Virus record (IMG/VR): IMGVR_UViG_3300025892_000024
Span: 1 to 56,778 of that record
Length of the DNA stretch: 56,778 nt
Source: a virus
Lineage: Duplodnaviria > Caudoviricetes
Reading direction: 5' to 3' (one strand)
In this document: positions 17,501 to 47,316 of the stretch, in pieces
How the letters are laid out: each line of letters starts with the position of its first letter
How positions within the stretch are numbered: position 1 is the first letter of the stretch
The notes under the pieces: model-generated
Seen by the model: only the letters and a program-made list of their open reading frames with translations
Databases searched by the model: none
Told to the model about the DNA's origin: nothing
Made by a program: the position numbers and the translations under genes

Positions 17501-17532
17501 AAGGCTGTGGGGCTAAATACAAGGCGGTGTAA
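14515..17532 (+). CDS. Multidomain protein (1005 aa): helical N-terminal part, NPP-flanked YbjQ-like domain, small NP-delimited modules, C-terminal Zn ribbon
   Basis: GGAGGT SD plus TTG; RNPP...YbjQ...KNPPKSNP; C-terminal C-x8-C...CKGC. Confidence 0.85.
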   Translation: MKTIKIEYINGENRRDTMRRIQRILTEEGKALGLNSASYSKDISVLVNELIQSRQDQHITIREGRNAGRFTRRSPAPTIPLAVKSPVKELDKYIQDSIPDAMYGKMLNLTPREVALQESLKTQVGLSSKIRVPHMEPESRLLAANIVGSLPTGGQGIEEAAKKKLSATVKQALGDLGIDAEGENKKRLLERLQAKPFFNDPTLIANFSNMIRAYHDVRENNLHYMQSIMTGMSAVKDAELFTNSMLPTPDNILNGATAYLIYDTKEALNVQDISSYIDEFVRNLLNYKEDRKVLKATEKQQQIGRFLATFDFNRREAAKALENAALKAIKTGGDFIDSYNEAIKTPASGANFDGKELEQIFTRMTTTMKYTERIDPDRNIFEIDDGVLTPIPGTEGKRNNQDILVEYLVKNGLAYPIIPTAKRVDKSLFLLIPIQLPAFEIKPIGWDRRWMIATMKIVDEYWDMIYGKNRQVILSDLLYLISARAKELFNYDIDVVQMTILALLLTDQRTASRRARSILPYTEGGKTPLRSLKTLIRDSTTEEMKRSVGEKPQIANLMLELKKTKLEQSQAEEEIKKNGGEFLNATNILVSILSRMLDDVAQSNFGNEEEKEINGATKKMEDHASDFKGQIEQLSKTLVENVADDSFRFGEPGKTNDVEKYYLQILEAVENYKDLTGVQPVKDEVYDALMIDDNLFGLDFDTVKEIASYKEVDLQDKDKKDKEKDDLLKDLQIKRLGGMRRLLRNPPSGKVGHITAEVVLGVNILKDIMAVGRDLIGGRSKTIEKKVAQCQKLLMEELRKKAEALGGNTLKNIRIEPFTYGQGNSIIVLLGNAEVWNESGGKKKNPPKSNPMEEGRTDSYDSYTLAKSAAVALANKEGETVYLWREGEKVLVSIFFPGHIVPNNVSEINPNPAGVIKNNPSKERKYKGVIIKKVENGWNVEAYDKTLPTLDKARKFISSKVKGSAKPNQRCIRIISGIQCKGTVVKMNKGPHYRCKGCGAKYKAV
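16756..17046 (+). other. YbjQ/UPF0145-like domain inside ORF 14515
   Basis: GHITAEVVLGVNILKDIMAVGRDLIGGRSKTIEKKV...MEELRKKAEALGGN...GNA matches the YbjQ pattern (G-N-D-RD-GGRS-E...A-LG-N...G-A). Confidence 0.85.
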
Positions 17533-21800: not shown

Positions 21801-22320
21801 TGGAACAACCGGACTAAATGAGGCTCCACCCCCACCGCCAGCCACAAGTCCTCCAAGCGTACAAAAAAATACACTGAAATTTCCTAGCGCAAAAGACCTA
21901 ATTATTCGATTAGAAGGTTTCTTTAACAATATTGGGACTGACCAAAATGAAATTGTAAAAAATATTAGTGAAGCTAGGGGCGCAGGTCAAATAATACACT
22001 CAACAGCAACCAAACTATCCCAAGAAATAGAATCGGTTGATGGCCCTCAATTTGCAATACATGATGTTGCACCAAACAGACCGTTGAGTAAGGAAGCCGC
22101 GAAAAATGCTGCGAAGCGTGCATTGATTTTATTCGAAGCATTTGTTCCTCCAGAATCTGGAACTCCACCAGGCGAAAAGGAAATTATTGACCAATTGGTG
22201 CAAACAAACTGGCAAAATGCGTTCACAGGTTTCGATACTTTTGGCTTTAATGGATTCGAGGAAATTGGTGGCATAACTGCAATGGATGTGTTGCAAACAT
22301 TAGCGGGGGTAACTTCTTGA
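18826..22320 (+). CDS. Large acidic, mostly helical hypothetical protein (1164 aa)
   Basis: AGGTGA SD; Pro/Gly linker (GGGGT...APPPPP) before a C-terminal domain. Confidence 0.85.
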   Translation: MADPTDSELIESAKEKLQKSAKMHLSSLDEIIFCKLEDIADEDYMAGVKGKPYFIVQEYLMAINIGEEATNESVAYQRLNAVKNDLVNSKKGEIVFPTSDRITVGHYLFSYRALRNPLMNDNTQITDNLDRDVAFGLLTDDEYKYVEEELGGIDQIYISQEGDIRLQRFKVGENEVTIFPAIEEKENELRYFSPKVWGDEPTPSFLKGKENKALIERFKLMKDLQPKDKEADNNKVISKESGMSPITKYYMMRYLGFYLSASKITDDALPKLRDNKLVLDRINISRQDDFDIETELRKILEGDLGDEKIDNKFPFDRLRTIYRYPDDWVEEALTQDIEDIEEPNPWDLDVKYGMLQKFFTILPTNQKTKFYDSVEEQIYSKMPTKKISLTHKPNDMKMVKESDEITIPFLNGSFAVAESMKVFAESDPSDSKKDRLKLRTNLGDKNSQQLITDGTLVNIPGWVILYSETNRKKSFLEAVLNIKFSQIFSVIGSVSSRFLHLSEGLNHVLDMILYIRNNEETLPIKESDLYDVLNTEYEAFVSTVGDTVSTTIIDDGAYTTVNLDRKKLIEGITKPDLLKKFEWFTRSAAVMPPEPEYNTEKDQSIEGVVESVEAIMAYTDSTGLQQNQLTRHNARAFNALGHVVEEMMINSAKRAVSTVEDTALTSDFDRVVMSLIGTNKNPGMAVFHSIVHYQYLFAIVTNPISRWESIDKDIFQQGAMLSLESFLTEPAKKTLLYLLNEKGFIDIGDFSDTSPKFFKVPVAPSVNVANFTGLMNGFSLIMISYYRLMFAQIRNRLVFERKTQTKGKVSKETADLSKYWRDMIADAERNTPSPALFGLVLRWFGQTGTVLEIPTWMPVSPAEMKSDAKMNKNDVLNYLKWSYSNNAVDLEAFSEVAAAYHAAKAMSYLETAKDIASGYADMVERFVEAVHEDMGHAFLFSILTNRNCPDPTKESPEAEKVIRISNIEAIQVRKEQERTKSESESEPKSGGGGTTGLNEAPPPPPATSPPSVQKNTLKFPSAKDLIIRLEGFFNNIGTDQNEIVKNISEARGAGQIIHSTATKLSQEIESVDGPQFAIHDVAPNRPLSKEAAKNAAKRALILFEAFVPPESGTPPGEKEIIDQLVQTNWQNAFTGFDTFGFNGFEEIGGITAMDVLQTLAGVTS

Positions 22321-25300
22321 TACCTCCAATGAATGCTGTAGCGGCTCACATACTAAAAGAGCAATACATCAAAAAAATTCCTGATTTAACAGAGGAGCAA
22401 TTCTCAAAATATGCAAGGAATTTGGTAATGCGTAAGGGTGTTGAAGGGCCATTACTTACAAAATCAATACGCAGTTGGGTTGCTAAACTAGTCGGCAAGG
22501 GTGGATTGGGAGGCCAAATACTGCCGATTGGAGTTGAGATAGAAGGAAAAGCAGCAAAAGAAATCAATGCTGACGGCCAAAAGCCAATTATCATCGACAG
22601 AGATTATCCAGGCGCAACTTTAGAACAGGCGGCAAATGCTTTCCAAGCCCAAGCGATTCTATTGTATCGTGCAGAAAAGCGAGGTTCAACGATTGGCCCT
22701 GACTTATCTGCGTTGATTGAGCCACGCCCAATAACTTCAATCAATGCAGAACGAGAAGGTTCTAATGAGGAATTCGTGAATAGGCAACAAAAAATGAGGG
22801 AGGCGTATGCTAATTCTGTATTTCCTTCGATTGATGCTTTGATTCCTAACACAAAGAAGGTTATTTTCGATTCCTCTAGGGGCAGACATGAAACACTTGC
22901 TCCAGCAATGAGCATCGGGCTTAACAATCACACAACTGGTCTTTGTTTTGAAACTGTAAAAGCAAACGAAGCAACTGAATTAGTTTGCCTACGTGCGATT
23001 GGCCTGACTTCAAAGAAAGCAATCGATGGCAGTTTAAGGCTATCAAAAAGGATTGAAAAAGAAATGAAAGTGTTGACATTAGTATGCTCATGGGGTTCTA
23101 CTGCTGCTATTTTCATAGGAGGCGGACCTTTAGGTTTGGTATCCAGAAATGATGCTTATGACTTCTTAGGCAGCATTGGTAAACCATCTGGTTCTCAAGC
23201 AGTAAACAGTAAAGTACCATACCGTGACATTGACTTGCCACTGTACGAATTGAAAATAAGTAAAGAGTCATTTACGACAAGATCTAATGATGTTATGCTA
23301 TTGCCTCTTAGCTTGGACATTGCACCTGCAAGGGCAAAAACAGCATCAAACAGACCGTTTGAAGGTTCACATGATTTAGCTCCTTCCTCAATGCAAAGTG
23401 GCAGAGTATTACTTCCTGTATATGATGCCGAATCTTTTGATACTGATTACGACGACCACCCTCAAGTAGTTCAATATCGAAAAGGCACTTATATTCCAGG
23501 AGTAATCGATTTCTTATCAAGTGTAAACTTAGCAAAGGACACCAAATATCAACCAGCAGAAATGAATCCTATGAAAACAAAATGGATTGAAATGAGGAAA
23601 GAAACATCTGCAGTTAAAGAAGGCACAGTTGATGATTTGATTAACGCACTTGAAGTGTTCTCTATTCCGTTTGGCTATGAGTGTATATTAAGTTACAATC
23701 GAGGCGAATGTTATCTTGCCGTCAATGGAGAAAATGCAATAACAAATATCCAACAAACAAGAGAATTCGCTGCTTATTGTGAATCTATGGGGATAAAAGA
23801 AATTATTGCTAAAGGTGTTTTGACTCCAAGAGACAATCAAGACTTTGAATTAGTTGATTATATTGTAGATATGGATGAAATACCTACTAATGAAGAGGAT
23901 TCAATTGCAATCTTTTCTAAACTTGAAGTTAGGGTATATGGTGCATTAGACGGTAAAGACTTCAATTTATTGCGCCCACTTGCCCTTTCAACAGTTAAGT
24001 CTTGCAGAAGCCAGTCAGCTAAATTTGTAGAGTTGTCTAACAGAAACTCTGATTTGTATTACTCAGAAATGATTAGCGATGAATTGGAATCCGGGTACGC
24101 AAACAAGCTTCTTATGACATTCGAAAATGCATCACCTTTGCATCTATACGGTGATATGCAGGTAGATGCAACAATTATTGCGTTTGACATCGAGGGCAAA
24201 AATCCTCAAAACAATTTGGTAGGAAACGTGGCTCTAGCTCTAATCTCAAAAGAGAGTGTAAAAATTGATGGTAAATCAAAAACAGTGGAGGCGTTTGTAC
24301 CTATTGGAACTACCAACGCATTTAGAGGATTCACTACAGAAGCAAAAAGAAGGATGCTCGACTACCTGATGGACCATGCTTTACAACCAGGGTACAAAGA
24401 TGGCTACTTGCTAATAGATCCAGTTAAGGCACAATTAACATTGAATGTTTCTTTCAAAGGTTTTGCTAAACAAGAAAGCCAACCAATCTATGAACATTAT
24501 ACGGAGATGAGGAAGTTCAAAGGCGACAGCCTACCGAAACCAGCCTTCTATGAGAAGGGAATTGGAAGGGTAGAGCCTACAGAACTCAAATACGAGCGCA
24601 TAAAAATACCAACATTTACAGATGCGGTTCCGGTTAGGACATATTTACGTGAAGTGGGTAAGAAAAAACTACCTATGCTAAAGAATCCAGTGATTACTTC
24701 GTTAGGGACCACAATCGATGGCCTTGACGATATGTTTGAGAAAAGCAAAGTTAGATACTCGGTCAAAGAATCGTTTTCACTTCAAGTTCCACTTTCACAA
24801 TTGAAGAAAAACGGACCAGAACCGCCAACAAAAGAATTAGATTTACCAGGGTCGATGTCAGTTTCTGATTTGCTGAACCTATCTTTGAATCCTCCATCAA
24901 CTTGCCCAATGGCTACTCAAAATCTTGAAGTAAATACCAAAAACAGAGATGCCGCAGTAAAAGCACCACACATTCAATATGGTCCGCTTAATCTTAGTGA
25001 TGAAGATTATTGGGTCCGATATGGAGAAAGGTGGAACACTGATGCACAAGTCGCTAAAAACTCGAATTGTAGCAATTGCATTGCCTTCGATATCAGTCCA
25101 AGAATGAAAGATTGCATGCCAGGAAAAACATCTGACAAAGAAGGGCAATTGGGTTACTGTTGGATGCACCACTTCAAATGCCATTCCGCTAGAACCTGTT
25201 ACACATGGGCATCTGGTGGTCCTATAGACCTAGATTCGGTTTCATTAGATTGGCAGAAGAGGTCTGAATCAGCTTTCAAATCAAATCCTCCTACGGATAA

Positions 25301-28300
25301 CTGGACTGCCCACCGCCAAAAGGTGCCATGGGAGTTCGACCAAGATGCATTTGATGGAACGGCATTCAGGACATTCCAAATGGACGACCCCGAAGATCGT
25401 AGGAAAGCTATTCACATGGATGGTTGGAGAAGGAGATTTGACAAATACAAAGGCGTTCAAGCGATAGCAGGTAAATTATCTTCAACAGGCAAATGGCACA
25501 TTCAAAGTATTAGGGTTCCGAAGAAATACAACCTTAGACGAAACCGTAAAGAAATGAAATTGGACAAACAACAACCGCCCCAGTGGTATGTGGAATTAAG
25601 GCCTAACACAAAGCCGTTTGGAACTAAAAATAATCCAATCATTCCACACGACTACATCAAAGCCATGGACAGGGGTTGGACTGGTTATCCTCATTGGATG
25701 ATAAAGAGAAATCCAGCACCTGATGTTTTAGATAATGCATACTATCACGGAACTACGCTTTCAAAAGCGAGGGAGATATTCGCCTCAAGATGGTTCAACT
25801 TCAAGGAAGATTACCCAACTTTTACGGATTCCTTGGATGTAGCTATAAGATTTGGCGTAGTCAAATGGCTTGGAAATAAAAATCCAGCAGACCCAATCGT
25901 AATCCTACAACTCGATTCAGAAGCAGCAGACAAAACGCTGAAACGATTAGAACGCATACCGGATTACTTCTCCGTTGATGGGCATTACTATGCGGTGATG
26001 GACCCGATACCGTCTTACTTCTTGCGCCCAGTGCAATACACGGAAGAACAATTCCATGAGGATTATGAAAAAATGAAAATGAAACATAAACATTCTCACG
26101 CTTGGGGGCAAAAGCGTTTCCCTGTCCCATCGAGCGACCAATACGCATCATTGAATGCCAATTGGGACGGAAACTACATCAGTAGTTGGCTTGATGACCC
26201 TTACAACAACTGGTGGAATTTTAGAGAACAAAAAGAACACGCTCCGTTCTACGCTGACAAAAAGAACCCAATGGCACCGGGCTACCAATCATACGGTTGG
26301 ACTACCCAAGACTGGCGTTCAATCAAAGTCAACAACAAGGGCGAAATTGATTATTCGCAGAAATGCGGTGCAGAAGGGACACAAACAGCAAGTGGCAAGC
26401 CCCGCCTTTGCCTCCCTGCTCCAGTGGTGAAGGCTTTGATGAGGACAGACTCAGGAAAGCAAGTAATCCGTGAACAGGCTCGCAAAAAAGTACGTGCTAA
26501 GAAGGGCGAGCGAATACCGTGGCATCCGAGAATCAAGAAACTGTGGAAGAAACTTGAAGAAAAAACACCTGCGGATAAAAGGAATCCAGTTTTGCCGAAG
26601 AAGAAGCATGGGAACTTCCCGCCCGCAGTGTTTCAATTCGACCCAGGGGTGACGGAAGGAGCTGAATGGTATACAGATGAAGAAGGATTACATGAAGAAT
26701 TATCATCACTTAGGAAAAACCATGATGAATATGTAAAACAGTACATGCGGAAGAATTTCAGTCAAAGGTGGAGTTGGGAAACTGAATATACTGGAAAAAG
26801 GCGTGAAGAAGAAAAAAAGATTCTTGAAAAAGCAAAAACAGTCGCAGACAAACACTTCCATGATAAGATGTGTACTAAGGGGGAAGACGGGAAGCCTTGT
26901 GAGTTTTGGCATGGTGGAATGAAAGCACCCTCGGTAGGGGAGCCGATGGCGTGGCATGAAAGGGAAAGAAAACCCACTCCTTGTACAGTCGGTTCCTACA
27001 AACTATGTATTAGTGGTTGCCTATTCTGCTACAAAGAGCAAGGTAGTACAATATCAAACCCTCCAGGTATTCCAAAGAAAGGTTCTGAATTGACGACAGA
27101 GAAGAAGCGTGAGATCCGTAAGAGATGGCTCGAACTTGTTAACATGACAAAACATGAGCTACAAACCTTCTATGATTCTGAATGGGGCAACAAAAGAGCA
27201 GGGTTGAGTAGAGATGAGGCTAAAGAAGCAGGGATCTCATCTGGTAGAGATTCAGCTTTAGCAATCTTGAAAATGAAAGAGACTCCTGTTAAAGAATGGT
27301 CTAAGCGTAAATCAAAAGACAGAGGCAGAGACATAATGCTGGACTTTTGGCAATGGGCTCAAAAGCAAATCAACTTCAATACACGCCATAGAGGAATGCA
27401 GGGTGCTTACTTAGACGACAGAGGCCGACCAAAGCGTAAGCTGTTAGGTCTATGGATATGGGGGCATGACCCTTGGAGATATGCACTTCAAGTGACGGGC
27501 GAAAAGATGGGCGAGTGTCCTAATGTTGCATGGGTTGGTCGTAAAGAGAAAGAGAAGTATGGCGTTAGGCCGATGATAAATCCTCCAACAATCCCTTCTA
27601 CTGCTTTCAAACTGATTCCTTCAGCAAAACCAGAACTTACCTACGCAGAGGGATATGCGCCTCAAAGAATAGTGGAGCGAGGGTGGTGGATGTATGATGC
27701 TCCTTGTGGTGAATACAGTCCTCCTGGATGGTTAAACATTAATCTCGCATATGACCCTAAAGGAGAATTTAACGCAGGGCAGTTTTGCTCAAACATCAGT
27801 CCAGACTGGATAATTTGGGACAACCCACCAAAGTTCACACCTTTGTATGGTGACATTCTAACAATAAGTGGTCCATCGGGTTCGGGCAAATCAACTATGG
27901 CTCAAGCGTTAGCTAAGAAACTGAAAGGGCAAATCATACCATCTTACATGACACGTGAGAAGCGCCCTAAAGAGAAAGAAGGAATTGATGGCGTGTTTAT
28001 CACTAAAGATAAGTTCGAGGAAATGATTGAGAACGGGGAGTTTACTGCAGGTGAAGTGAATCTATGGGTCAAACAAAAGAATGGAGAATACTATGGCCGC
28101 AGAGCATCAGACTTTGCAATTTCAAAACCAGTAATTATTGATGCGAACTTCGAGGGTATAAGAAGAATGCGTGCTGCATTCCCCAATAAGACATACAGCG
28201 TATTCATCAGAACAGGAATGGGTGAAGATAGAAGAAAGCAACTTCTAACTGCTAGAGGCGTTCATACTGAGGAAGAGATAGAAAGCAGGGTGAAGGCCGG

Positions 28301-30686
28301 AACAGGTATGCTATCCACATTCCAGAACATGAACTTCGATTTCATAGCAGCCAACAAGAGGGGGGAATTACCTAAGAATGTGAAAATGATTGCCTCTGAA
28401 TTCAAGAAGTGGAGGAATAGACCGATGGCGAATCCTCCAGCGCACCACGACAAAACTTCCATTGTCCGAAGATTTGTGAAAGACTTAGATCCATCTATTG
28501 AATTCACCGCAAAATCACTTGAAGGTCGATTGAAGAATGCTGGATACCGTATGCATCCGAATGCTCGGCAGATTGGGAGAATACTCAGTATCATGAAAAA
28601 AGAGGGCTTGATAGTTCAAACCAAATTTAGCGGGTCTGTAACATATCGGAATTCCGAAAGCAATTACGCCATGGAAAATCCCCCAAGTGTGTCTCCCGAA
28701 GACTATGTGCAGTTTTATAGGAATATTCCTGTCTTTGAGGGCGATGGCGCACTGGATATGGGTATTCAAACTGATAAAGGTAAAACCAAATATCACAATC
28801 AATGGCTAGATGGTGTATTCTCTGATATGCCAGATAAGGCAGAAGCATGGAAAAAGCAATCATTCAGTAAAGAAATAGCTTTGAGAACTGTTATTGACGA
28901 AGACGGAACTGTGCATGAGGGATTCCTGGACAAGTATGCTGATGATAATAGGCCATATACAGTATCTTTGAAAGTTGATGGTGACAGCTCTTTGATTCAC
29001 TTTAATGGAAATGAATCGGTTGTATGGAATAAGCGAGGCCGGTGGAGAAGAAATTTCCACATTACGGATGAAATGACTGATTATCTGCAATCACAGGGGA
29101 TTGATTCAGCACAGATATTGGGTGAATTGTATGCTGTTGATGAAGGAGGGGCAACATTATCGTTGAAAGAGATTAGCAGTATAATTGTAGCTCCGAAAAC
29201 AATGGAGAGACAGAAACAAATCCGCTTTGCTGCCTTCGACATTCTAGAACTAAACGGTAGGGATTACATCGACACGCCTTATGGGGAAAGAATGGAGGCA
29301 CTGGACAACCTGTTTGCTGGTGAAGACTTGCCATCAATCATGAGCGTTCCAATGTTGAAGAGTGATGGGGGAGTGAAGGAAGTCCTTGAATTGTGGGAGG
29401 AAAGTATGAGTGAGCCAAACTTTGAGGGCTTGGTTCTAAGATTTGATGGCGATAACAAATCAATCAAAATCAAGATGAAAGGCACAGCAGACTTAGCCAT
29501 CATAGGCTACTATCACGGAAAAGAGGGCGGCAACAAAGAATCTATTGTTGGTGGAGGCGCTTTAGCTTGGATGCTTCCTAATGGTGATTTCATTTATGCG
29601 GGTAAATCAGTCATTGGTTCAACAGACAAAGAGAAAGGCGAGTTACTTGAACTATTGAGCAAAGACCAAATCGATGCCCCTAACATGAAGCTTGGCGGTA
29701 GGGTAGTTTCTAACTCAGTAAGAGAAACCCATGATGTGAGGGGCAAAGGAATGCTAAAGATGGTAAAGCCAAAGTATGTCGGGGAGTTCCTTTATCGTAA
29801 TATCAACTTCAAAGATTGCCCCGTATTCAGATTGAAAGGTAAGAAGTTGTTGTATGTAGGAACAGTTAGGGCACCAGTATTACAACAACCATCTTTCAAG
29901 AAATGGCGTGAAGATAAATCAATCAACGCTCAAGATCTAAGAATAGAGCAAGTTCCACTTGAAGGAACAGGAAAGTGGGGTCAAATAAAACCTAATCCTC
30001 CTGGGGACCTTCCGGAAGATATAGAATATCCTGGGGGTCATGGGCAATATTTGACGGATTCAATAACTATTGGGGCTTTGATAGAACAGATAGGCGCTGA
30101 TGGCAAAAAGCGAAGAAATCTAAACTCAAGAGGATTCTATCAAGAGCATGTAAATCCAAAATGGCCTTTGGAGCACCCCGAACTAGCAGCACGTTTGATT
30201 GAGGCAGAGAAGAAAGGCTGGAAAATCCCGCAAGAATTAGCAAAACACTTGATACGGCCTAATCCTCCAAAGAATACAGGAGTCATGCTCCCTCCAATCA
30301 TCGTGACAGGCACGATGTATGATTCAAAACTATTGAGGCAATATCCAAACTACGGTTTCATCTTTGGCGATAATGAAAAAAGAACAGGGAAGGGCGGTCA
30401 AGCGGTAATCCGTGATGAACCGAATGCCATAGGAGTGAGGACAAAGGCCAGTTCGAGAAAGTTCTGGAATGATAGTCATATGCAAAACTCCGTCAAGATG
30501 ATGTCGGAGGACTTCTTGCGTGTATTCAATGGGGGATATGACGCAATAGTGATTCCTGTCGCTGGGATAGGCACAGGATTAGCCGAATTGAAAAAGCGTG
30601 CACCCCTCACTAACAGATGGCTTCAAACTGTTATGGAGCAATTAAATACAATAGCCAAGACTGAAAAAACGGGGGAATTGAAATGA
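22317..30686 (+). CDS. Giant modular polyprotein (2789 aa) with NP(P)-delimited domains
   Basis: 8.4 kb uninterrupted ORF; GGGGGT SD plus TTGA overlap; ligase, guanylate kinase, ART-like, DUF3140-like, wHTH and macro-like modules separated by NPP/NP. Confidence 0.92.
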   Translation: MIPPMNAVAAHILKEQYIKKIPDLTEEQFSKYARNLVMRKGVEGPLLTKSIRSWVAKLVGKGGLGGQILPIGVEIEGKAAKEINADGQKPIIIDRDYPGATLEQAANAFQAQAILLYRAEKRGSTIGPDLSALIEPRPITSINAEREGSNEEFVNRQQKMREAYANSVFPSIDALIPNTKKVIFDSSRGRHETLAPAMSIGLNNHTTGLCFETVKANEATELVCLRAIGLTSKKAIDGSLRLSKRIEKEMKVLTLVCSWGSTAAIFIGGGPLGLVSRNDAYDFLGSIGKPSGSQAVNSKVPYRDIDLPLYELKISKESFTTRSNDVMLLPLSLDIAPARAKTASNRPFEGSHDLAPSSMQSGRVLLPVYDAESFDTDYDDHPQVVQYRKGTYIPGVIDFLSSVNLAKDTKYQPAEMNPMKTKWIEMRKETSAVKEGTVDDLINALEVFSIPFGYECILSYNRGECYLAVNGENAITNIQQTREFAAYCESMGIKEIIAKGVLTPRDNQDFELVDYIVDMDEIPTNEEDSIAIFSKLEVRVYGALDGKDFNLLRPLALSTVKSCRSQSAKFVELSNRNSDLYYSEMISDELESGYANKLLMTFENASPLHLYGDMQVDATIIAFDIEGKNPQNNLVGNVALALISKESVKIDGKSKTVEAFVPIGTTNAFRGFTTEAKRRMLDYLMDHALQPGYKDGYLLIDPVKAQLTLNVSFKGFAKQESQPIYEHYTEMRKFKGDSLPKPAFYEKGIGRVEPTELKYERIKIPTFTDAVPVRTYLREVGKKKLPMLKNPVITSLGTTIDGLDDMFEKSKVRYSVKESFSLQVPLSQLKKNGPEPPTKELDLPGSMSVSDLLNLSLNPPSTCPMATQNLEVNTKNRDAAVKAPHIQYGPLNLSDEDYWVRYGERWNTDAQVAKNSNCSNCIAFDISPRMKDCMPGKTSDKEGQLGYCWMHHFKCHSARTCYTWASGGPIDLDSVSLDWQKRSESAFKSNPPTDNWTAHRQKVPWEFDQDAFDGTAFRTFQMDDPEDRRKAIHMDGWRRRFDKYKGVQAIAGKLSSTGKWHIQSIRVPKKYNLRRNRKEMKLDKQQPPQWYVELRPNTKPFGTKNNPIIPHDYIKAMDRGWTGYPHWMIKRNPAPDVLDNAYYHGTTLSKAREIFASRWFNFKEDYPTFTDSLDVAIRFGVVKWLGNKNPADPIVILQLDSEAADKTLKRLERIPDYFSVDGHYYAVMDPIPSYFLRPVQYTEEQFHEDYEKMKMKHKHSHAWGQKRFPVPSSDQYASLNANWDGNYISSWLDDPYNNWWNFREQKEHAPFYADKKNPMAPGYQSYGWTTQDWRSIKVNNKGEIDYSQKCGAEGTQTASGKPRLCLPAPVVKALMRTDSGKQVIREQARKKVRAKKGERIPWHPRIKKLWKKLEEKTPADKRNPVLPKKKHGNFPPAVFQFDPGVTEGAEWYTDEEGLHEELSSLRKNHDEYVKQYMRKNFSQRWSWETEYTGKRREEEKKILEKAKTVADKHFHDKMCTKGEDGKPCEFWHGGMKAPSVGEPMAWHERERKPTPCTVGSYKLCISGCLFCYKEQGSTISNPPGIPKKGSELTTEKKREIRKRWLELVNMTKHELQTFYDSEWGNKRAGLSRDEAKEAGISSGRDSALAILKMKETPVKEWSKRKSKDRGRDIMLDFWQWAQKQINFNTRHRGMQGAYLDDRGRPKRKLLGLWIWGHDPWRYALQVTGEKMGECPNVAWVGRKEKEKYGVRPMINPPTIPSTAFKLIPSAKPELTYAEGYAPQRIVERGWWMYDAPCGEYSPPGWLNINLAYDPKGEFNAGQFCSNISPDWIIWDNPPKFTPLYGDILTISGPSGSGKSTMAQALAKKLKGQIIPSYMTREKRPKEKEGIDGVFITKDKFEEMIENGEFTAGEVNLWVKQKNGEYYGRRASDFAISKPVIIDANFEGIRRMRAAFPNKTYSVFIRTGMGEDRRKQLLTARGVHTEEEIESRVKAGTGMLSTFQNMNFDFIAANKRGELPKNVKMIASEFKKWRNRPMANPPAHHDKTSIVRRFVKDLDPSIEFTAKSLEGRLKNAGYRMHPNARQIGRILSIMKKEGLIVQTKFSGSVTYRNSESNYAMENPPSVSPEDYVQFYRNIPVFEGDGALDMGIQTDKGKTKYHNQWLDGVFSDMPDKAEAWKKQSFSKEIALRTVIDEDGTVHEGFLDKYADDNRPYTVSLKVDGDSSLIHFNGNESVVWNKRGRWRRNFHITDEMTDYLQSQGIDSAQILGELYAVDEGGATLSLKEISSIIVAPKTMERQKQIRFAAFDILELNGRDYIDTPYGERMEALDNLFAGEDLPSIMSVPMLKSDGGVKEVLELWEESMSEPNFEGLVLRFDGDNKSIKIKMKGTADLAIIGYYHGKEGGNKESIVGGGALAWMLPNGDFIYAGKSVIGSTDKEKGELLELLSKDQIDAPNMKLGGRVVSNSVRETHDVRGKGMLKMVKPKYVGEFLYRNINFKDCPVFRLKGKKLLYVGTVRAPVLQQPSFKKWREDKSINAQDLRIEQVPLEGTGKWGQIKPNPPGDLPEDIEYPGGHGQYLTDSITIGALIEQIGADGKKRRNLNSRGFYQEHVNPKWPLEHPELAARLIEAEKKGWKIPQELAKHLIRPNPPKNTGVMLPPIIVTGTMYDSKLLRQYPNYGFIFGDNEKRTGKGGQAVIRDEPNAIGVRTKASSRKFWNDSHMQNSVKMMSEDFLRVFNGGYDAIVIPVAGIGTGLAELKKRAPLTNRWLQTVMEQLNTIAKTEKTGELK
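23571..24760 (+). other. Degenerate (probably inactive) ATP-dependent DNA ligase-like module
   Basis: Aligns by eye with the intact ligase module (DATIIAF/DLAIIGY, VGNVALAL/VGGGALAW, GFTTEAKRRMLDYL/GSTDKEKGELLELL, PMLKNP/PVLQQP) but has no KxDG. Confidence 0.6.
24897..25283 (+). other. Cys/His-rich module (CPMATQNLEVNTKNRD...CSNCIAFD...GYCWMHHFKCHSARTC)
   Basis: Bounded by NPP at 24888 and 25284; probable metal-binding domain. Confidence 0.6.
25716..26264 (+). other. ADP-ribosyltransferase-fold-like module
   Basis: YYHGTT start motif, ...TFTDSLDVAIRFG... and VILQL strand, typical of H-type ART-like phage domains; bounded by RNP 25710 and KNP 26265. Confidence 0.55.
27066..27578 (+). other. 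DUF3140-like module
   Basis: LVNMTKHEL...SGRDSA...TRH...LWIWGHDP; bounded by NPP at 27057 and 27579. Confidence 0.7.
27831..28430 (+). other. Guanylate kinase-like module
   Basis: ISGPSGSGKST P-loop, SYMTREKRPKEKEGIDGVF, FEEMIENGEF, GEYYG, VIID; bounded by NPP at 27822 and 28431. Confidence 0.9.
28440..28676 (+). other. Winged helix-turn-helix module
   Basis: FTAKSLEGRL...PNARQIGRILSIMKKEGLIVQ...VTYR; bounded by NPP at 28431 and 28677. Confidence 0.7.
28686..29993 (+). other. ATP-dependent DNA ligase module (adenylation plus OB domain)
   Basis: Motif I KVDG (28971), III ILGEL, IIIa FAAFDIL, IV EGLVLR, V KIK, OB domain DLAIIG...VKP...PSFKKWREDK; bounded by NPP at 28677 and 29994. Confidence 0.92.
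30270..30683 (+). other. Macrodomain-like module (FIFGDN...GKGGQA...PNAIGVRTK...IPVAGIGTGLA)
   Basis: Gly-rich loops GGQA and GIGTGLA resemble macro-fold ADP-ribose-binding loops; starts after NPP 30261. Confidence 0.55.
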
Positions 30687-33600
30687 ATCACGAACCAAGG
30701 TCAAACCCCATCATGCGTTTGAAAAAGATGAAAAAGCCGAAAGGACGAAAACTTAGAGGCGAAGTTAATCCGATTGTTCGTAAAATGTTCCGTCGAGACC
30801 AGAATGGTGTTGTCGGTGCTATTGCTTATTCTAGTAAAAGAGAGGCGAAAAAACAATTCAATTCCAAAAGTTATGTATGGGAATTCGAGAATAAATATCC
30901 TGGAGAAATATTCGAATACCATTTAGAAAAGCAGGTCATTACCGGTGTTGTAAGGGGTAGCGATTGGAAAAAGATTAGACCAAGGCTGCACCCCTTAGAT
31001 GGCAGCCCTTACACAACATCAGATATACAACAAGTGAGAGCTGCGGACGAAGCGCCGAAAAGTACCCTGATATCTTTACTGACTGACAAAGAGGTTGTTT
31101 CACACAATAACCCATACGACCCCGAAATCATAATCACTGCACCACATACATTCGATGACAAAAAAGAAGACGGCCACGATACTGATTGGTTATCCGAATC
31201 ATTAGCAGATGAACTACACAGCACTCTTCACAATAGAGGAGTTCCTGTATTACTCCTAAAGGGCGAAATAGATCGTGATGACTTGGACTTAAACAGGCTT
31301 GAATCTGAAAATCACGAGTTCCACAAAACACTAGATGATACCTTGCCTCAAGCAGATATGTTATTCGATATACATTCTTACCCGCCTTACTATCCTGTAT
31401 GGGCTGACTACGACATTGTATTATTTCATAATGGGCCATATCATACAGATGAAGACAACTTGGATACTCTTGAACTATTTGAGTACATACAAAAGAGAAT
31501 TCCAGACGCTTCAATATACATTGAATTAGCTAATGAAACACAACACTTCATTCAAAACAAGGGGCTATCTTACGATTTGAGTTCTTTCTTGATTGAGATA
31601 AATGAAACTAGGACTGATTTAGTTGAGGACTTAGCAGAAGCTTTAGCAGATTTCGCATTGGGAGTTTCACCAAATCCACCGAGTTTATTGCCAGAAGGAG
31701 CAAGATATCACCAATTCACTATTTCGCTCCCCCTTTCGACTCCATTGAACAAAAAATTAGTATTTCCAGAGATAATGGAGTTAGAAATGATTGATAAAGG
31801 ATTTACCCTGCGTAAAAAGACATTAGACAGGGTAACAGGTACTATTACAGATTTTCTTACATTTGGGTTGCCACCAGGTATGGACGAAAGACCAACTATC
31901 GGCCTTCAAAGGGGGAAAAAAGATGCTTTGTTGAGAAAAGCAGAACACCTTACGAATGATGAAGTTATCTTGATTCAAGACTTAATCACAGAGTCAGCGG
32001 AAAAACAACCCATCATGAATCCCTTTGAACCTGAGAAAGATGCAAGGAAAGAATTGAAAGACATAGGCGTTGAGGGTAACAAAGACATTGATAAGGTTGT
32101 AAAGTATATTCAAACTGGAAATGTATCGGCTTTTACGGGTTGGAACAACAATAGGAAAAAGAAAAACATTAACCATTTGACTGATGAACAGTATAAAAAA
32201 ATAGTAGCTATGTTTGATTCAGGGCTGTCAGAAAATAGCACTGACAATGAAATCAAAGAGGCACTTAGGAAATACAATATAGATGAGCCCAAAAAGGGCA
32301 ATAAACTAAATCGTAGCAAAGCACTACAAAAGTTTCACATCGTAGGGGATTTTTCCGAAGATGAAGATTTGGAAAAAGAATTGAAGTACAGGAACATCAA
32401 TGTCTCTAAGAAAGGAGATAAGTTAGATCGAGAAAAGGCACTAGGGCAATTGGCTTCTAAAGCTCAAATAAAAGCAACAAAACTTACTGACTTTGTTGAA
32501 GCCAAAGCACAAAAGATGAAACTTTCAACAGATGTCACAAAGTCGATTATGGAAGCTATCATCCCCGGCGCATCAAAAACAATAGCGCCTGGTTCCCAAA
32601 CTGATACAAGGGAAAGAAGAAAGATTGATGGTAAATTTATGACGAACAACGAGTTCAAAAATAAGTTCAAGCCGAAAAATAAACAGGATTGGAATAAATG
32701 GAATCAGGCTCAAAAGGAAAAGCCTACCAATCAAAAAGGTCAAGGTAATGCTAAAGAGGACGATTGGAGTAAAGAGTTTAAGCTAATTGATGGCTACAAA
32801 ACCAGCAAAAGAGATTGGCGCAGTAAACAGGGCAGAGTGCCTAATTGGGACGAATGGAATAATGCACCTAAAGCCAATCCTCCAGTAGTAGCAATTCCTT
32901 CGGAGGGTAAATTCGTTATGGATGTGACAGATGAAGTAGTTAGAGATGCCACAATTTCTGTAATCAAAGGCAAACCCGAATTAGATGTGCAAGGAGTAGC
33001 CACTGGAGAAACCCTTGACAAAAAAATGGGCAATATCATCAGAATCAATATGTTTAGAAAATCAGCCGGCTTCAAACTAAGTAGGGGCGATGCAAACACA
33101 GATTATGTGATTTCTATTGAGACTGGTGGCAAGCACTTCTATGTTAAATCAAAAGTGAATATTGATGGTTTAGCAATCTTGAAACACTTCCCTACAAAGA
33201 AAAGCGAACCAAGACTAAGAGTTGAAACAAGGGGTATGTTACAGTTTGGAAATAAATCCGGCTTCATCAGAGTACGAGGCAAAACCCATGACCTATACGA
33301 TTCAGTTAAAATTAGTCAATTGTTGTTGAATCCAACTAGATATGCTCAACAGTATTTGGACGACCATATACCAATTGAAGATTCAAAGATTCCAACATCT
33401 TACAAGAAGTACAAACTAGAGGGCCCTATTGGTTCAACCGAATTCTTTGAACAGATATCGGCAAAAATGCAAAACTTTGGTGAAGGCCAAGGTTGGGTAA
33501 AAGACGGCCACCTGTATTGGAGGAAGGGCAACAATGCAGATAACTACGTGAATGTTGATGGATTGATGATAGAAGGCGGTGAAGCTTGGATGCACACCCA

Positions 33601-34006
33601 CCCTGCTGCTTGGGAGCCATCGCAAACAAGTCCAGACGATTTCAAAGTCATGCATGGTATGTTTACTGTGCATGGTGTAAAAGATTTCTTTACTATAATA
33701 GCAGATAGAATTGACTGGTTTAGGTTCTCTAAGAAAGAAAAATTAGAAGATATGGTTGAAGTGATTGAAGAATTTGAAAGCGATATTGAAACTGAATTCG
33801 ATGTAGCCGAACAAAATTTTGTGAACAAAATGGGTGAAGAACCATACCTGACTTCTGAACTTACTAAATACATAACAAACCATTTCAATAAAACCATTCC
33901 AGAGTTCCAAGCAAAATATAGGGCATACATGCTGTCTCCTTCACAAATCAACCAAAGAACTAAGAAAAATCCACCAGATATGATTGACATACATGGCTTT
34001 TACTAA
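30683..34006 (+). CDS. Second modular polyprotein (1107 aa) with NP(P)-delimited domains
   Basis: ATGA overlap with GGGGG SD; NP/NPP at 30704, 31109, 31673, 32018, 32876, 33329 and 33968 separating modules. Confidence 0.9.
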   Translation: MNHEPRSNPIMRLKKMKKPKGRKLRGEVNPIVRKMFRRDQNGVVGAIAYSSKREAKKQFNSKSYVWEFENKYPGEIFEYHLEKQVITGVVRGSDWKKIRPRLHPLDGSPYTTSDIQQVRAADEAPKSTLISLLTDKEVVSHNNPYDPEIIITAPHTFDDKKEDGHDTDWLSESLADELHSTLHNRGVPVLLLKGEIDRDDLDLNRLESENHEFHKTLDDTLPQADMLFDIHSYPPYYPVWADYDIVLFHNGPYHTDEDNLDTLELFEYIQKRIPDASIYIELANETQHFIQNKGLSYDLSSFLIEINETRTDLVEDLAEALADFALGVSPNPPSLLPEGARYHQFTISLPLSTPLNKKLVFPEIMELEMIDKGFTLRKKTLDRVTGTITDFLTFGLPPGMDERPTIGLQRGKKDALLRKAEHLTNDEVILIQDLITESAEKQPIMNPFEPEKDARKELKDIGVEGNKDIDKVVKYIQTGNVSAFTGWNNNRKKKNINHLTDEQYKKIVAMFDSGLSENSTDNEIKEALRKYNIDEPKKGNKLNRSKALQKFHIVGDFSEDEDLEKELKYRNINVSKKGDKLDREKALGQLASKAQIKATKLTDFVEAKAQKMKLSTDVTKSIMEAIIPGASKTIAPGSQTDTRERRKIDGKFMTNNEFKNKFKPKNKQDWNKWNQAQKEKPTNQKGQGNAKEDDWSKEFKLIDGYKTSKRDWRSKQGRVPNWDEWNNAPKANPPVVAIPSEGKFVMDVTDEVVRDATISVIKGKPELDVQGVATGETLDKKMGNIIRINMFRKSAGFKLSRGDANTDYVISIETGGKHFYVKSKVNIDGLAILKHFPTKKSEPRLRVETRGMLQFGNKSGFIRVRGKTHDLYDSVKISQLLLNPTRYAQQYLDDHIPIEDSKIPTSYKKYKLEGPIGSTEFFEQISAKMQNFGEGQGWVKDGHLYWRKGNNADNYVNVDGLMIEGGEAWMHTHPAAWEPSQTSPDDFKVMHGMFTVHGVKDFFTIIADRIDWFRFSKKEKLEDMVEVIEEFESDIETEFDVAEQNFVNKMGEEPYLTSELTKYITNHFNKTIPEFQAKYRAYMLSPSQINQRTKKNPPDMIDIHGFY
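31115..31672 (+). other. N-formylglutamate amidohydrolase-like (Zn-exopeptidase fold) module
   Basis: IITAPH...D...DLNR...FH...LFDIHSY...DIVL...FLIEINE; bounded by NP 31109 and NPP 31673. Confidence 0.75.
33335..33967 (+). other. JAB/MPN-like metal-binding module
   Basis: E...WMHTHP...SPDD (HxH-x-SxxD) at 33593; bounded by NP 33329 and NPP 33968. Confidence 0.7.
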
Positions 34007-34015
34007 GCGTTTCAT

Positions 34016-34036
34016 TGATAGGGACAAAACACTTCC
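34016..34036 (+). promoter_or_regulatory. 21-bp element TGATAGGGACAAAACACTTCC just upstream of the chaperonin ATG
   Basis: 19/21 identical to a minus-strand copy at 42530-42550 that lies a similar distance before the RHH gene ATG. Confidence 0.65.
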
Positions 34037-34043
34037 CCGTTTC

Positions 34044-35804: not shown

Positions 35805-35945
35805 ATGAAAAAAATATGCCCAAAACGAAAAGGGGGCAAAACCTGTTCGCCAGTTCTAAGGAACAATGGTCGTTTTATCTGCGTTGATTGCGGGCAAGAT
35901 GTGAAAAGGGGCAAAAAAAGGAGCGCCTTTACACAAACAGATTAG
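35805..35945 (+). CDS. Small Zn-finger protein (46 aa)
   Basis: MKKICPKRKGGKTCSPV...ICVDCG; ATG immediately after the upstream stop. Confidence 0.55.
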   Translation: MKKICPKRKGGKTCSPVLRNNGRFICVDCGQDVKRGKKRSAFTQTD

Positions 35946-47315: not shown

Positions 47316-47316
47316 A

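What the first reader, a model, noticed from the sequence alone, without database searches (positions are those of the whole stretch)
22317..34006. Asn-Pro(-Pro)-punctuated cargo polyproteins: an apparently undescribed modular processing system
Seen: in the 2789-aa ORF, NPP occurs 9 times (24888, 25284, 27057, 27579, 27822, 28431, 28677, 29994, 30261) and NP at further linkers (23565, 25632, 25710, 26265, 26583). In the 1107-aa ORF, NP/NPP falls at 30704, 31109, 31673, 32018, 32876, 33329 and 33968. These sites bracket nearly every recognisable domain (ligase, guanylate kinase, wHTH, DUF3140-like, ART-like, amidohydrolase, JAB), and the C-terminal macro-like domain begins right after one. Codons vary (AATCCTCCA, AACCCACCA, AATCCCCCA...), so the signal is at protein level, not a DNA repeat. 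A rough composition estimate gives under 1 expected NPP in 2789 aa. Established: Asn-Pro bonds self-cleave in FlhB/YscU (NPTH), Pro-Pro endopeptidase PPEP-1 cuts NP|P, and 2A StopGo acts at NPG|P. Inference: unrelated enzymes are recruited as NP(P)-flanked cassettes into virion-packaged polyproteins that are cut into single effectors, or NP(P) is a repeated capsid-targeting tag.
Basis: partly seen in the sequence, partly recalled or inferred. Interest (0 to 1): 0.95.

Follow-up and report, generated by a model that had tools for sequence, protein, structure and literature searches.

The report
Asn-Pro-punctuated modular viral polyproteins
Two giant genes of an uncultured marine virus string unrelated enzyme modules together, with a conserved Asn-Pro(-Pro) motif at every junction that looks like a protease cutting site, though no cutting has been shown.

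Summary
NPP occurs 9 times in the 2789-aa ORF against 0.48 expected (0 of 20,000 shuffles reach 9) and 3 times in the 1107-aa ORF against 0.17 expected.

The motif is family-wide in metagenomic relatives. Their homology blocks end at NP sites, and the blocks are reordered, inserted, or encoded as separate genes. In an AlphaFold model of the second ORF, 6 of 8 NP sites fall in disordered linkers. The same motif follows a conserved 9-residue leader of a neighbouring basic protein in 9 of 9 related loci and in a complete 128.8-kb relative.

The consensus is [P/V/I/L/A]-[K/R/L/M]-x-N-P-(P). I read these as endoprotease processing sites.

The best enzyme candidate is a module with an HxH...SxxD motif and weak JAB/MPN fold support. 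It lies in the same or the adjacent polyprotein in every NP-punctuated system whose context I could see.

- **Not shown:** cleavage, the enzyme, and packaging into virions.
- **Not found:** a classical prohead protease, an HK97 capsid protein, or a terminase in the complete relative.
- **Literature:** ten full-text searches found no description of this.
- **Verdict:** a real, apparently undescribed architecture; the mechanism is inferred.

The parts
22317..30686 (+). Polyprotein 1 (2789 aa from TTG 22317; the database cluster representative starts at ATG 22329 and has 2785 aa). It has a conserved N-terminal domain plus 13 modules, each junction at an NP site.
   Evidence: Homology-block ends fall at aa 858, 990, 1106, 1132, 1317, 1423, 1581, 1755, 1836, 2039, 2121, 2560 and 2649.
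22317..24887 (+). N-terminal conserved domain (aa 1-857), function unknown. Its internal NPs at aa 417, 629 and 790 are not among the nearly invariant columns.
   Evidence: It aligns with the N-termini of 12 homologues at 21-50% identity. No Pfam, PHROG or ESM Atlas lead.
24888..25283 (+). Cys/His-rich module (aa 858-989), flanked by NPP on both sides.
   Evidence: At least 599 matching stretches in IMG/VR. In most of the 80 loci kept it is a stand-alone gene whose ends coincide with the module borders.
27822..28430 (+). Guanylate kinase module (aa 1836-2038) between two NPP sites.
   Evidence: Pfam Guanylate_kin E 5.6e-15 at 1848-2014. PHROG 1815.
28677..29993 (+). ATP-dependent DNA ligase module (aa 2121-2559) between two NPP sites.
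   Evidence: Pfam DNA_ligase_A_M E 2.2e-10 and DNA_ligase_A_C. PHROG 114.
30261..30683 (+). DUF7831 module (aa 2649-2789), beginning at an NPP site.
   Evidence: Pfam DUF7831 E 3.2e-28. It is a stand-alone gene in cultured phages.
30683..34006 (+). Polyprotein 2 (1107 aa). NP sites lie at aa 8, 29, 143, 331, 446, 732, 883 and 1096.
   Evidence: Columns N331, P333, N446, P447, N732 and P733 are invariant in 23 sequences; N8/P9 and N883/P884 are at least 90% conserved. In the AF2 model 6 of 8 sites lie in pLDDT<50 segments.
31109..31672 (+). FGase/M14-like metallohydrolase module (aa 143-330). Assigning the fold match to this stretch is my inference.
   Evidence: Pfam FGase in 3 of 23 homologues, best E 8.7e-4. 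Foldseek of the whole model hits CCP5 8v3o at E 1.7e-5 and putative metallopeptidases 2qvp and 3ieh. Stand-alone homologues of 175-210 aa start at profile position ~144.
33329..33967 (+). JAB/MPN-like putative metalloprotease module (aa 883-1095). It is the candidate processing enzyme.
   Evidence: Invariant E52, H89, H91, S98, S101, D103 and D104 in module numbering. AF2 pTM 0.77. Top PDB fold hit is the JAMM domain 7lm3_B at E 0.066. BFVD gives 5 hits at E<=1e-3, with 'Deubiquitination hydrolase' at E 9e-3. Pfam Prok-JAB gives no hit.
33968..34003 (+). C-terminal NPP plus a 9-residue tail (NPPDMIDIHGFY).
   Evidence: An NPP tail ending in G-[FL]-[FY] occurs in 18 of 25 homologues. A similar NP-x-GF element follows internal JAB-like modules.
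16747..17532 (+). C-terminal part of ORF 14515-17532. NP(P) sites at aa 745, 845, 850 and 919 flank small modules, including YbjQ_1.
37053..37088 (+). Leader MAGNQLLLINPP of the basic repeat protein (ORF 37053-38438).
   Evidence: M-A-x-x-x-L-[IL]-L-[IV]-NPP is conserved in 9 of 9 related loci. G001 has MSEGRLVLVNPPR.
33984..35540 (+). Thermosome-type chaperonin directly downstream of polyprotein 2 (conserved synteny).
   Evidence: Pfam Cpn60_TCP1 E 5.6e-105. NCBIfam thermosome models at E 4e-98, below their cut-offs. Present after the polyprotein in 17 of 19 metagenome loci.

Best explanation
ORFs 22317-30686 and 30683-34006, together with the tail of ORF 14515-17532, are modular polyproteins of an uncultured marine dsDNA virus lineage. 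Relatives have genomes of about 125-143 kb. The lineage encodes a thermosome-type chaperonin, which hints at an archaeal host.

Unrelated enzyme and binding modules are joined by short disordered linkers. Each linker carries [P/V/I/L/A]-[K/R/L/M]-x-Asn-Pro-(Pro).

The most likely role of this motif is a recognition and scissile site for a dedicated endopeptidase. That enzyme would release the modules and trim short terminal peptides: the 9-residue leader of the basic repeat protein, the N-terminal leader of polyprotein 2, and the C-terminal tail of polyprotein 2.

The best candidate enzyme is the HxH...SxxD (JAB/MPN-like) module, which is embedded in the polyproteins themselves. This would resemble the embedded proteases of RNA-virus and retroviral polyproteins.

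- **Shown:** the motif, its enrichment, its position at module borders and in disordered linkers, its conservation, module shuffling, and its co-occurrence with the JAB-like module.
- **Inferred:** that the sites are cleaved, which bond is cut, which enzyme cuts, and whether this happens in a capsid.
For: 1. Enrichment in the window.
2. Family-wide enrichment. NP observed exceeds expected in all 35 of P0003-P0037, and NPP is present in 33 of 35. NP observed exceeds expected in all 25 of P0043-P0067.
3. Module borders. In all 35 proteins the share of internal BLASTP block ends within 5 aa of an NP (mean 51%) exceeds the maximum of 200 random placements (mean 7.7%). All 13 module junctions of ORF1 are NP sites.
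4. Shuffling. Module order is swapped between P0001 and P0004. Extra modules are inserted exactly at NP883 in P0048, P0050 and P0060-62. Genes are split differently in L087, L090 and G001. Stand-alone homologues end at the module borders.
5. Linker location. 6 of 8 NP sites of ORF2 lie in pLDDT<50 segments, which cover 207 of 1107 residues (binomial 8e-4); a seventh site abuts such a segment.
6. Site-like logo from 515 unique sites. Information is concentrated at -3 (0.48 bit), -2 (0.69 bit; K 36%) and +2 (0.63 bit; P 33%).
7. Terminal sites. NP lies within the first 14 residues in 21 of 25 ORF2 homologues, and an NPP tail is present in 18 of 25. The basic protein carries the leader plus NPP in 9 of 9 loci and in G001.
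8. Link to the JAB-like module. 18 of the 34 proteins P0004-P0037 carry it in cis. The five distant giants P0038-42, which lack NPP enrichment (0-1 NPP each), lack it. NP observed/expected is 2.97 in 52 proteins with the module and 1.50 in 56 others without it (Mann-Whitney 6e-15; the proteins are not phylogenetically independent).
9. Precedent. Consensus-site processing of head-internal proteins and short targeting leaders is established in T4 and SPN3US (passages of PMC3012670, and PMC10052503).
Against: - There is no direct evidence of cleavage, and no proteomic data were available.
- The JAB assignment is weak. Pfam Prok-JAB gives no hit at E<=1 in the window. No Pfam family hits ORF2. The best PDB fold hit has E 0.066 and probability 0.51. 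The spacing between HxH and SxxD is longer than the canonical one as I recall it.
- As I recall, known JAMM enzymes cut after Gly-Gly, not at Asn-Pro.
- X-Pro bonds are poor substrates for most proteases.
- NP is not depleted in the window's other proteins (summed: 26 observed against about 19 expected), so there is no sign that the motif is avoided elsewhere.
- The association between the JAB-like module and NP enrichment is confounded by shared ancestry.
- G001's polyprotein lacks the C-terminal NPP tail.
- Many modules are nucleotide-metabolism enzymes (kinase, ligase). These could work as an uncleaved multi-enzyme protein, and they need not be virion cargo.
Confidence: 0.45

Rival explanations
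1. NP(P) is an uncleaved linker or short docking motif. It might be a rigid Pro-rich hinge, or a repeated binding site for the adjacent thermosome, for a capsid or scaffold protein, or for a packaging factor. The polyproteins would act as intact multi-enzyme proteins.
For: The sites lie in disordered, Pro-enriched linkers (P enriched at +2 and +4 to +6). A thermosome gene directly follows polyprotein 2 in 17 of 19 loci. Multi-domain fusions without cleavage are common. No recognised processing protease family was found.
Against: A pure linker does not explain the invariant Asn. It does not explain the upstream -3/-2 preferences. It does not explain the motif 9-12 residues from the N-terminus of a single-domain basic protein, or about 10 residues from the C-terminus of polyprotein 2. 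A targeting tag is not needed at every junction.
Confidence: 0.28
2. Asn-Pro autocleavage. The Asn side chain attacks its own peptide bond (asparagine peptide lyase chemistry), as in FlhB N|PTH, reovirus mu1 and RsgI. The reaction might be triggered by assembly.
For: The Asn-Pro bond is the cleaved bond in FlhB (passage of PMC3207474) and in RsgI and the VP5/mu1 capsid proteins (passages of PMC10328401). Asn is the invariant residue here.
Against: [quoted passage not shown] Here the sites sit in pLDDT<50 linkers between unrelated folds, with only -3/-2 preferences in common. About 30 different junction contexts are unlikely each to provide such a site.
Confidence: 0.07
3. The sites are cleaved, but by a different enzyme: a host protease, or an unrecognised viral one such as the DUF7689 protein at 49080-49520 or one of the unannotated ORFs. 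The JAB-like module would then be an effector, for example a deubiquitinase-like enzyme.
For: The JAB assignment is weak, and the Gly-Gly specificity I recall for JAMM enzymes does not fit. DUF7689 is conserved in G001 at 48.6% identity. Most ORFs of the window are unannotated.
Against: The JAB-like module is in the same or the adjacent polyprotein in every NP-punctuated system whose context was visible. No S78 or S77 family was found in the complete relative, and no zincin motif in the window.
Confidence: 0.12
4. NP(P) acts during translation or at DNA level. Either Pro-Pro stalls the ribosome at module borders to aid co-translational folding, or the sites are short recombination joints for swapping cassettes.
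For: As I recall, Pro-Pro motifs stall ribosomes. AATCCTCCA recurs at 5 of the 12 NPP sites in the two ORFs.
Against: Only 33% of 515 sites have Pro-Pro, whereas Asn-Pro is the constant. Codons vary and follow background usage. Amino-acid preferences at -3/-2 point to selection at protein level. At most about six bases are fixed, which is too few for homologous recombination.
Confidence: 0.05

Closest known systems
T4 internal proteins with a capsid targeting sequence, processed by the prohead protease
   Same: T4 carries a diverse set of head-internal proteins that share only a short conserved N-terminal targeting sequence (passages of PMC3012670). Here, a short conserved leader precedes the motif on a basic protein.
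   Different: As I recall, T4 cuts after Glu (L/I-x-E) using an S77 serine protease. No S77 family was found here. T4's substrates are separate small proteins, not multi-enzyme polyproteins.
Giant-phage prohead proteases (SPN3US gp245, phiKZ gp175) and their ejection proteins
   Same: One consensus site (AXE) is used at many positions in head proteins. N-terminal propeptides are removed, and the protease removes its own C-terminal propeptide (passages of PMC10052503). A relative here also encodes a multisubunit-RNA-polymerase-like protein.
   Different: The motif differs (N-P rather than AXE), and no homologous protease was recognised. In those phages cleavage removes propeptides; it does not separate enzyme modules.
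Polyproteins with an embedded protease (RNA viruses, retroviruses; ASFV pp220/pp62, adenovirus precursors)
   Same: A conserved junction motif combined with a protease encoded within, or next to, the substrate. This comparison is from my own recall.
   Different: Those viruses infect eukaryotes and use Cys, Ser or Asp proteases with other site motifs. I know of no equivalent in dsDNA viruses of prokaryotes.
JAMM/MPN+ metalloproteases
   Same: An invariant Glu, HxH and S..D. The top PDB fold hit is a JAMM domain. BFVD hits include entries labelled deubiquitination hydrolase and metalloprotease.
   Different: No Pfam hit. Fold scores are weak. The motif spacing is not canonical. The Gly-Gly specificity I recall for this family does not match N-P.
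Asparagine peptide lyases (FlhB/YscU N|PTH, reovirus mu1, RsgI)
   Same: The Asn-Pro bond.
   Different: In those proteins the site sits in a structured turn within a folded domain. Here it sits in disordered linkers between unrelated modules.
Pro-Pro endopeptidase PPEP-1 (VNP|PVP)
   Same: Some sites resemble its substrate, for example KANPPVVAIP at ORF2 aa 732 (passages of PMC10413326).
   Different: PPEPs are secreted bacterial enzymes (abstract of PMC12828418, seen in the listing). As I recall they are zincins; no HExxH or HxxEH motif occurs in any window ORF of 100 aa or more. Pro-Pro is present at only 33% of sites.

Membership tests
JAMM/MPN+ (JAB) metalloprotease | Match to the family's sequence profile | tested here: not met
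   Pfam PF14464 gives no match at E<=1 in the window, while the control genomes do match. No Pfam family hits ORF2 or, for this region, its 22 aligned homologues.
JAMM/MPN+ (JAB) metalloprotease | Glu ... HxH ... S-x-x-D metal and catalytic motif (the motif is recalled) | tested here: inconclusive
   E52, H89, H91, S98, S101, D103 and D104 are invariant in 14 sequences. HxH sits at the end of a strand and S/D at the start of a helix. The spacing is 9 residues rather than the usual 7.
JAMM/MPN+ (JAB) metalloprotease | MPN fold | tested here: inconclusive
   PDB ranks 1 and 3 are JAMM domains, but at E 0.066-0.12 and TM 0.21-0.27. BFVD gives 5 hits at E<=1e-3, either unnamed or labelled 'minor capsid protein', and 'Deubiquitination hydrolase' at E 9e-3.
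Prohead-protease maturation system (S78 HK97-type, S77 T4-type) | A prohead protease gene of these families in the genome | tested here: not met
   No PF04586 or PF03420 match at E<=1 in the complete relative G001 or in G002. No protease family was found among the window ORFs scanned.
Prohead-protease maturation system (S78 HK97-type, S77 T4-type) | Substrates are head proteins of an HK97-fold capsid | tested here: inconclusive
   No PF05065, PF03237 or PF04233 match in G001. The only weak leads are PHROG 283 at E 4.8e-4 for 47218-48042 and an ESM Atlas 'cement protein' cluster at 0.91 for 45277-46677.
Asparagine peptide lyase (N6 FlhB/YscU, N7 reovirus, RsgI) | Asn-Pro located in a structured turn of a folded autocatalytic domain | tested here: not met
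   6 of 8 NP sites of ORF2 lie in pLDDT<50 segments, and a seventh abuts one. The junctions join unrelated modules.
Pro-Pro endopeptidase substrates (PPEP, M34) | Pro-Pro scissile pair at every site, and a zincin protease encoded nearby | tested here: not met
   P at +2 in 33% of 515 sites. No HExxH or HxxEH motif in window ORFs of 100 aa or more.
2A / StopGo peptides | NPG|P with an upstream D(V/I)ExNPGP consensus (recalled) | tested here: not met
   G is not among the five commonest residues at +2. None of the window's 26 NP sites in the two ORFs reads NPG.

The most novel reading that the evidence does not exclude
A lineage of dsDNA viruses of marine (probably archaeal) hosts expresses much of its enzyme repertoire as polyproteins. 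An embedded JAB-family metalloprotease with a previously unknown Asn-Pro specificity cuts these polyproteins at every module junction. It also matures a histone-like basic protein by removing a 9-11-residue leader. This would be the first multi-enzyme polyprotein strategy in a prokaryotic dsDNA virus and a new protease specificity.
Probability: 0.3. Interest if true: 0.9.

Novelty: new variant of a known kind. Interest (0 to 1): 0.8.

Why it matters
Processing of polyproteins at a consensus site is a hallmark of RNA viruses, retroviruses and a few eukaryotic dsDNA viruses. It is not a known feature of viruses of bacteria or archaea.

Here a simple, testable sequence rule marks the borders of dozens of shuffled modules across a widespread marine virus family. 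If cleavage is confirmed:
- it would define a new site-specific protease, which could be useful as a tool because X-Pro bonds resist most proteases;
- it would give a rule for parsing otherwise unannotatable giant viral ORFs into functional units;
- it would show a cassette mechanism by which viruses collect and exchange enzymes.

Even if the sites are not cleaved, the motif is a reliable domain-boundary marker for this family.

Tried and rejected
**Searches that found nothing**
- tblastn of ORF2 against GenBank phages found no match. ORF1 matched only single modules (DUF7831, guanylate kinase) in 60 records.
- IMG/VR scans with ORF2, with the N-terminal domain and with alignment A1 found no relatives.
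- PHROGs, Pfam and NCBIfam gave almost nothing on the other window ORFs.
- PDB sequence searches were uninformative for the DUF7689 protein (chance-level EF-hand hits), for the JAB-like module and for profile A1.
- The ESM Atlas gave no lead for the N-terminal domain.
- The zincin motif scan was negative.
- Pfam on nine ORF1 modules and one ORF2 module at E<=1 gave only a weak DUF3140 hit.

**Readings considered and dropped**
- Magrovirus membership. The magrovirus paper notes a ligase inside the structural module. However, no HK97 capsid, S78 or Terminase_6N family was found in the complete relative, and that relative has an Rpb1-like gene.
- NPP as the (D/N)PP(Y/F/W) methyltransferase motif. 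None of the window's NPP sites is followed by an aromatic residue.
- NP as a helix N-cap. After 5 of the 8 sites in ORF2 the model shows coil or strand.
- An apparent antisense homology. It came from my reverse-strand coordinates: the hits are the ATPase gene and the antisense strand of the Cys-rich module.

**Literature**
All ten full-text searches found no description of NP(P)-punctuated polyproteins. Supplementary files were not opened. Table S1 and Figures S1-S2 of PMC5434244, and Table S13 of PMC11706807, may list related large ORFs.

Full report
**What the window is**

The window is an IMG/VR virus record of 56,778 bp, linear, with a CheckV completeness estimate of about 45%. Almost all genes lie on the + strand, and many overlap start-to-stop.

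PHROGs, Pfam and NCBIfam recognise very little:
- a thermosome-type chaperonin at 33984-35540;
- a serine recombinase at 50736-51671;
- a DUF7689 protein at 49080-49520;
- a YbjQ_1 domain in ORF 14515-17532;
- guanylate kinase, ATP-dependent DNA ligase and DUF7831 in ORF 22317-30686.

- ORF1 (2789 aa) has 9 NPP against 0.48 expected from composition, and 18 NP against 8.0.
- ORF2 (1107 aa) has 3 NPP against 0.17, and 8 NP against 3.2.
- In 20,000 residue shuffles, none reached 9 NPP for ORF1 and 19 reached 3 for ORF2. NPP is the most over-represented tripeptide of ORF1 by five orders of magnitude.
- Outside these two ORFs, NPP within real genes occurs twice in ORF 14515-17532 (aa 745 and 845, bracketing YbjQ_1 at 751-833) and once at aa 10-12 of ORF 37053-38438. 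It also occurs in two low-complexity Pro/Asn-rich stretches.
- Codons at the sites vary and follow the genes' codon usage.

**The motif is family-wide**

A search with ORF1 returned 35 close-to-moderate relatives of 1553-4211 aa. They come from marine metagenomes, and one NCBI record is labelled as a Euryarchaeota MAG. Five distant giant proteins were also returned.
- All 35 relatives have more NP than expected, with ratios of about 1.8 to 4. NPP is present in 33 of 35.
- The five distant proteins have 0-1 NPP.

A search with ORF2 returned 25 relatives, all with NP above expectation.

**NP marks module borders**

In an all-against-all BLASTP of the ORF1 family, 51% of internal block ends lie within 5 residues of an NP, against 7.7% for random placement. 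In each of the 35 proteins the observed value exceeds the maximum of 200 randomisations. Block ends are not independent, because one border is counted many times.

In ORF1 the blocks end at aa 858, 990, 1106, 1132, 1317, 1423, 1581, 1755, 1836, 2039, 2121, 2560 and 2649. All 13 are NP sites, and all 9 NPP are among them. The five non-junction NPs are at aa 417, 629, 790, 1189 and 2613.

**Modules are shuffled**

- The order changes. The Cys-rich module and the next module are swapped between P0001 and P0004, and the Cys-rich module sits at very different positions in P0007, P0008 and P0023.
- The Cys-rich module gave at least 599 matching stretches in IMG/VR. In most of the 80 loci kept it is a stand-alone gene of about 135-240 aa. 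The conserved core of that gene begins and ends where the polyprotein has its NPP sites.
- A profile of the ORF2 family found 1202 proteins at E<=1e-3 among 1.84 billion representatives. Many are stand-alone single modules. For example, FGase-like proteins of 175-210 aa start at profile position ~144, which corresponds to the NP143 site.

**Conservation within ORF2**

- In the 23-sequence alignment, N331, P333, N446, P447, N732 and P733 are invariant. N8/P9 and N883/P884 are at least 90% conserved. Their surroundings vary.
- Extra modules are inserted exactly at NP883 in five homologues and are themselves flanked by NP(P).
- 21 of 25 homologues have an NP within the first 14 residues.
- 18 of 25 end with NPP plus about 8-14 residues that finish in G-[FL]-[FY].

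**Structure**

An AlphaFold2 model of ORF2 built with 23 sequences has a mean pLDDT of 71. Its low-confidence segments begin at or contain 6 of the 8 NP sites, and a seventh site abuts one. Those segments cover 207 of 1107 residues (binomial 8e-4).

**The motif**

From 515 unique sites in the ORF1 family, the information outside N-P sits at three positions:
- position -3: P/V/I/L/A, 0.48 bit;
- position -2: K 36%, then L, R and M, 0.69 bit;
- position +2: P 33%, 0.63 bit.

A position-specific matrix was built from the homologues only. It scores well on the junction sites of the three polyproteins and on the leader of ORF 37053, and on almost nothing else in the window.

**Context**

Nineteen metagenome loci show a conserved gene order:
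1. polyprotein 1;
2. polyprotein 2;
3. thermosome;
4. a 255-aa P-loop ATPase on the opposite strand;
5. a small RHH-like gene (RHH is my reading of its sequence; no tool tested it);
6. a basic repeat protein;
7. further conserved genes.

In 9 of 9 loci that reach the basic protein, it begins M-A-x-x-x-L-[IL]-L-[IV]-N-P-P and continues with AAAKKAAATRKRNA-type repeats.

A complete relative, G001, has 128,784 bp with direct terminal repeats. It keeps the same gene order at 24-69% protein identity, but partitions the modules differently:
- a 985-aa ORF holds the N-terminal domain plus one module, joined at LNPPT;
- a 2151-aa polyprotein has NP 19 against 5.5 expected and NPP 7 against 0.34, and ends in the JAB-like module;
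- its basic protein has MSEGRLVLVNPPR.

G001 also encodes a protein matching RNA_pol_Rpb1_5 (E 3e-19), a GT4 glycosyltransferase and a PAPS-reductase-like protein. It gives no Pfam match at E<=1 for Peptidase_S78, Peptidase_S77, Phage_capsid, Phage_Mu_F or Terminase_6N.

The virion type is therefore unknown, and 'virion cargo' is unproven.

**A candidate enzyme**

The C-terminal module of ORF2 (aa 883-1095) is the best-conserved part of the protein, at 57-92% identity in alignment A2.
- It has an invariant Glu, HxH and S/D residues.
- The HxH sits at a strand end and the S/D at a helix start in a model with pTM 0.77.
- Foldseek puts JAMM domains first among PDB entries, but weakly (E 0.066).
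- In BFVD it finds five viral proteins at E<=1e-3. Two are labelled 'minor capsid protein' and the rest are unnamed. Entries labelled deubiquitination hydrolase (E 9e-3) and metalloprotease (E 0.04) follow.
- Pfam's Prok-JAB model does not match.

An HMM of this module finds it in 18 of the 34 proteins P0004-P0037. There it sits either near the N-terminus (about aa 110-330) or at the C-terminus. The HMM also finds it in G001's polyprotein, and in none of the five distant giants P0038-42, which lack NPP enrichment. In the window, in the metagenome loci and in L002 it lies in the adjacent or the same polyprotein.

NP observed/expected is 2.97 for 52 proteins of at least 500 aa that carry the module. 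It is 2.57 for 17 JAB-less members of the ORF1 family, and 1.50 for 56 other proteins. These groups are related by descent, so this is an association and not a test.

**Reading**

The pattern is a short motif with upstream specificity. It sits at every junction, after short N-terminal leaders and before a short C-terminal tail, and it comes together with a putative protease inside the polyprotein. This is what a site-specific processing system looks like.

The nearest established parallels are:
- the T4 capsid-targeting leaders (passages of PMC3012670);
- the AXE sites of giant-phage prohead proteases (passages of PMC10052503);
- polyproteins with embedded proteases in eukaryotic viruses (recalled).

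Asn-Pro autocleavage as in FlhB, reovirus and RsgI is less likely, because those sites lie inside folded domains. PPEP-like Pro-Pro cleavage cannot be general, because two thirds of the sites lack Pro-Pro and no zincin motif is present.

An uncleaved linker or docking motif remains a serious rival. Nothing here shows cleavage.

**Limits**

- Supplementary files of the papers were not seen.
- Names of Pfam accessions that appear but are not printed by any search (for example NUDIX, SET, glutaredoxin, GNAT) are recalled.

Noticed in passing
window 37053-38438: A highly basic protein built from 144-bp tandem repeats (3.3 copies, 84% matches) that encode AAAKKAAATRKRNAS-type units. It has a Gly-rich hydrophobic C-terminal half and a conserved C-terminus, RVNLF. 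It may be a DNA-condensing core protein. Antisense ORFs across the repeats are probably artefacts.
   Followed up: partly
window 39261-39341 (in ORF 38454-39602): A 12-bp tandem repeat (6.8 copies, 97% matches) encodes NPAN/NPVN repeats. This NP-rich stretch is unrelated to the junction motif and scores low against the site matrix.
   Followed up: partly
window 33984-35540: A thermosome-type (group II) chaperonin gene directly follows polyprotein 2 in 17 of 19 related loci. It might fold the giant polyproteins. It also hints at an archaeal host.
   Followed up: partly
window 35942-36709 (-): A 255-aa P-loop ATPase with weak FtsK/TraD/VirB4-like hits is conserved at 45-96% identity, next to a small RHH-like gene at 36714-36977 (-). 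Its role, whether packaging or something else, is unknown.
   Followed up: partly
window 44490-45260 and 45277-46677: The 256-aa protein is the most conserved in the region (84-88% identity where polyprotein 2 is 53-56%) and is paralogous to the next ORF. The ESM Atlas gives a weak 'phage cement protein' lead for the latter. Both are possible capsid proteins.
   Followed up: partly
window 8872-9546, 39614-40519, 40520-41104: These three ORFs hit the same stretches of related loci at 29-42% identity, so they look like paralogues of a small Gly-rich protein family.
   Followed up: no
G001 (L108:9544-12063, +): The complete 128.8-kb relative encodes an 839-aa protein matching RNA_pol_Rpb1_5 (E 3.3e-19). 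It has no Pfam match to HK97 capsid, S78/S77 protease, Mu F or Terminase_6N. The lineage may lie outside the described tailed-virus groups.
   Followed up: partly
window 17536-18192: This 218-aa ORF is a separate gene here, but its homologue forms the C-terminal part of a 1211-aa NP-rich ORF in the IMG/VR contig behind L002. It is an example of module fusion and fission.
   Followed up: partly
window 22317-22331: ORF1 probably starts at ATG 22329 rather than TTG 22317. The identical database cluster representative has 2785 aa.
   Followed up: partly
window 49080-49520: The DUF7689 protein (E 1e-17) is conserved in G001 at 48.6% identity. Its function is unknown.
   Followed up: partly
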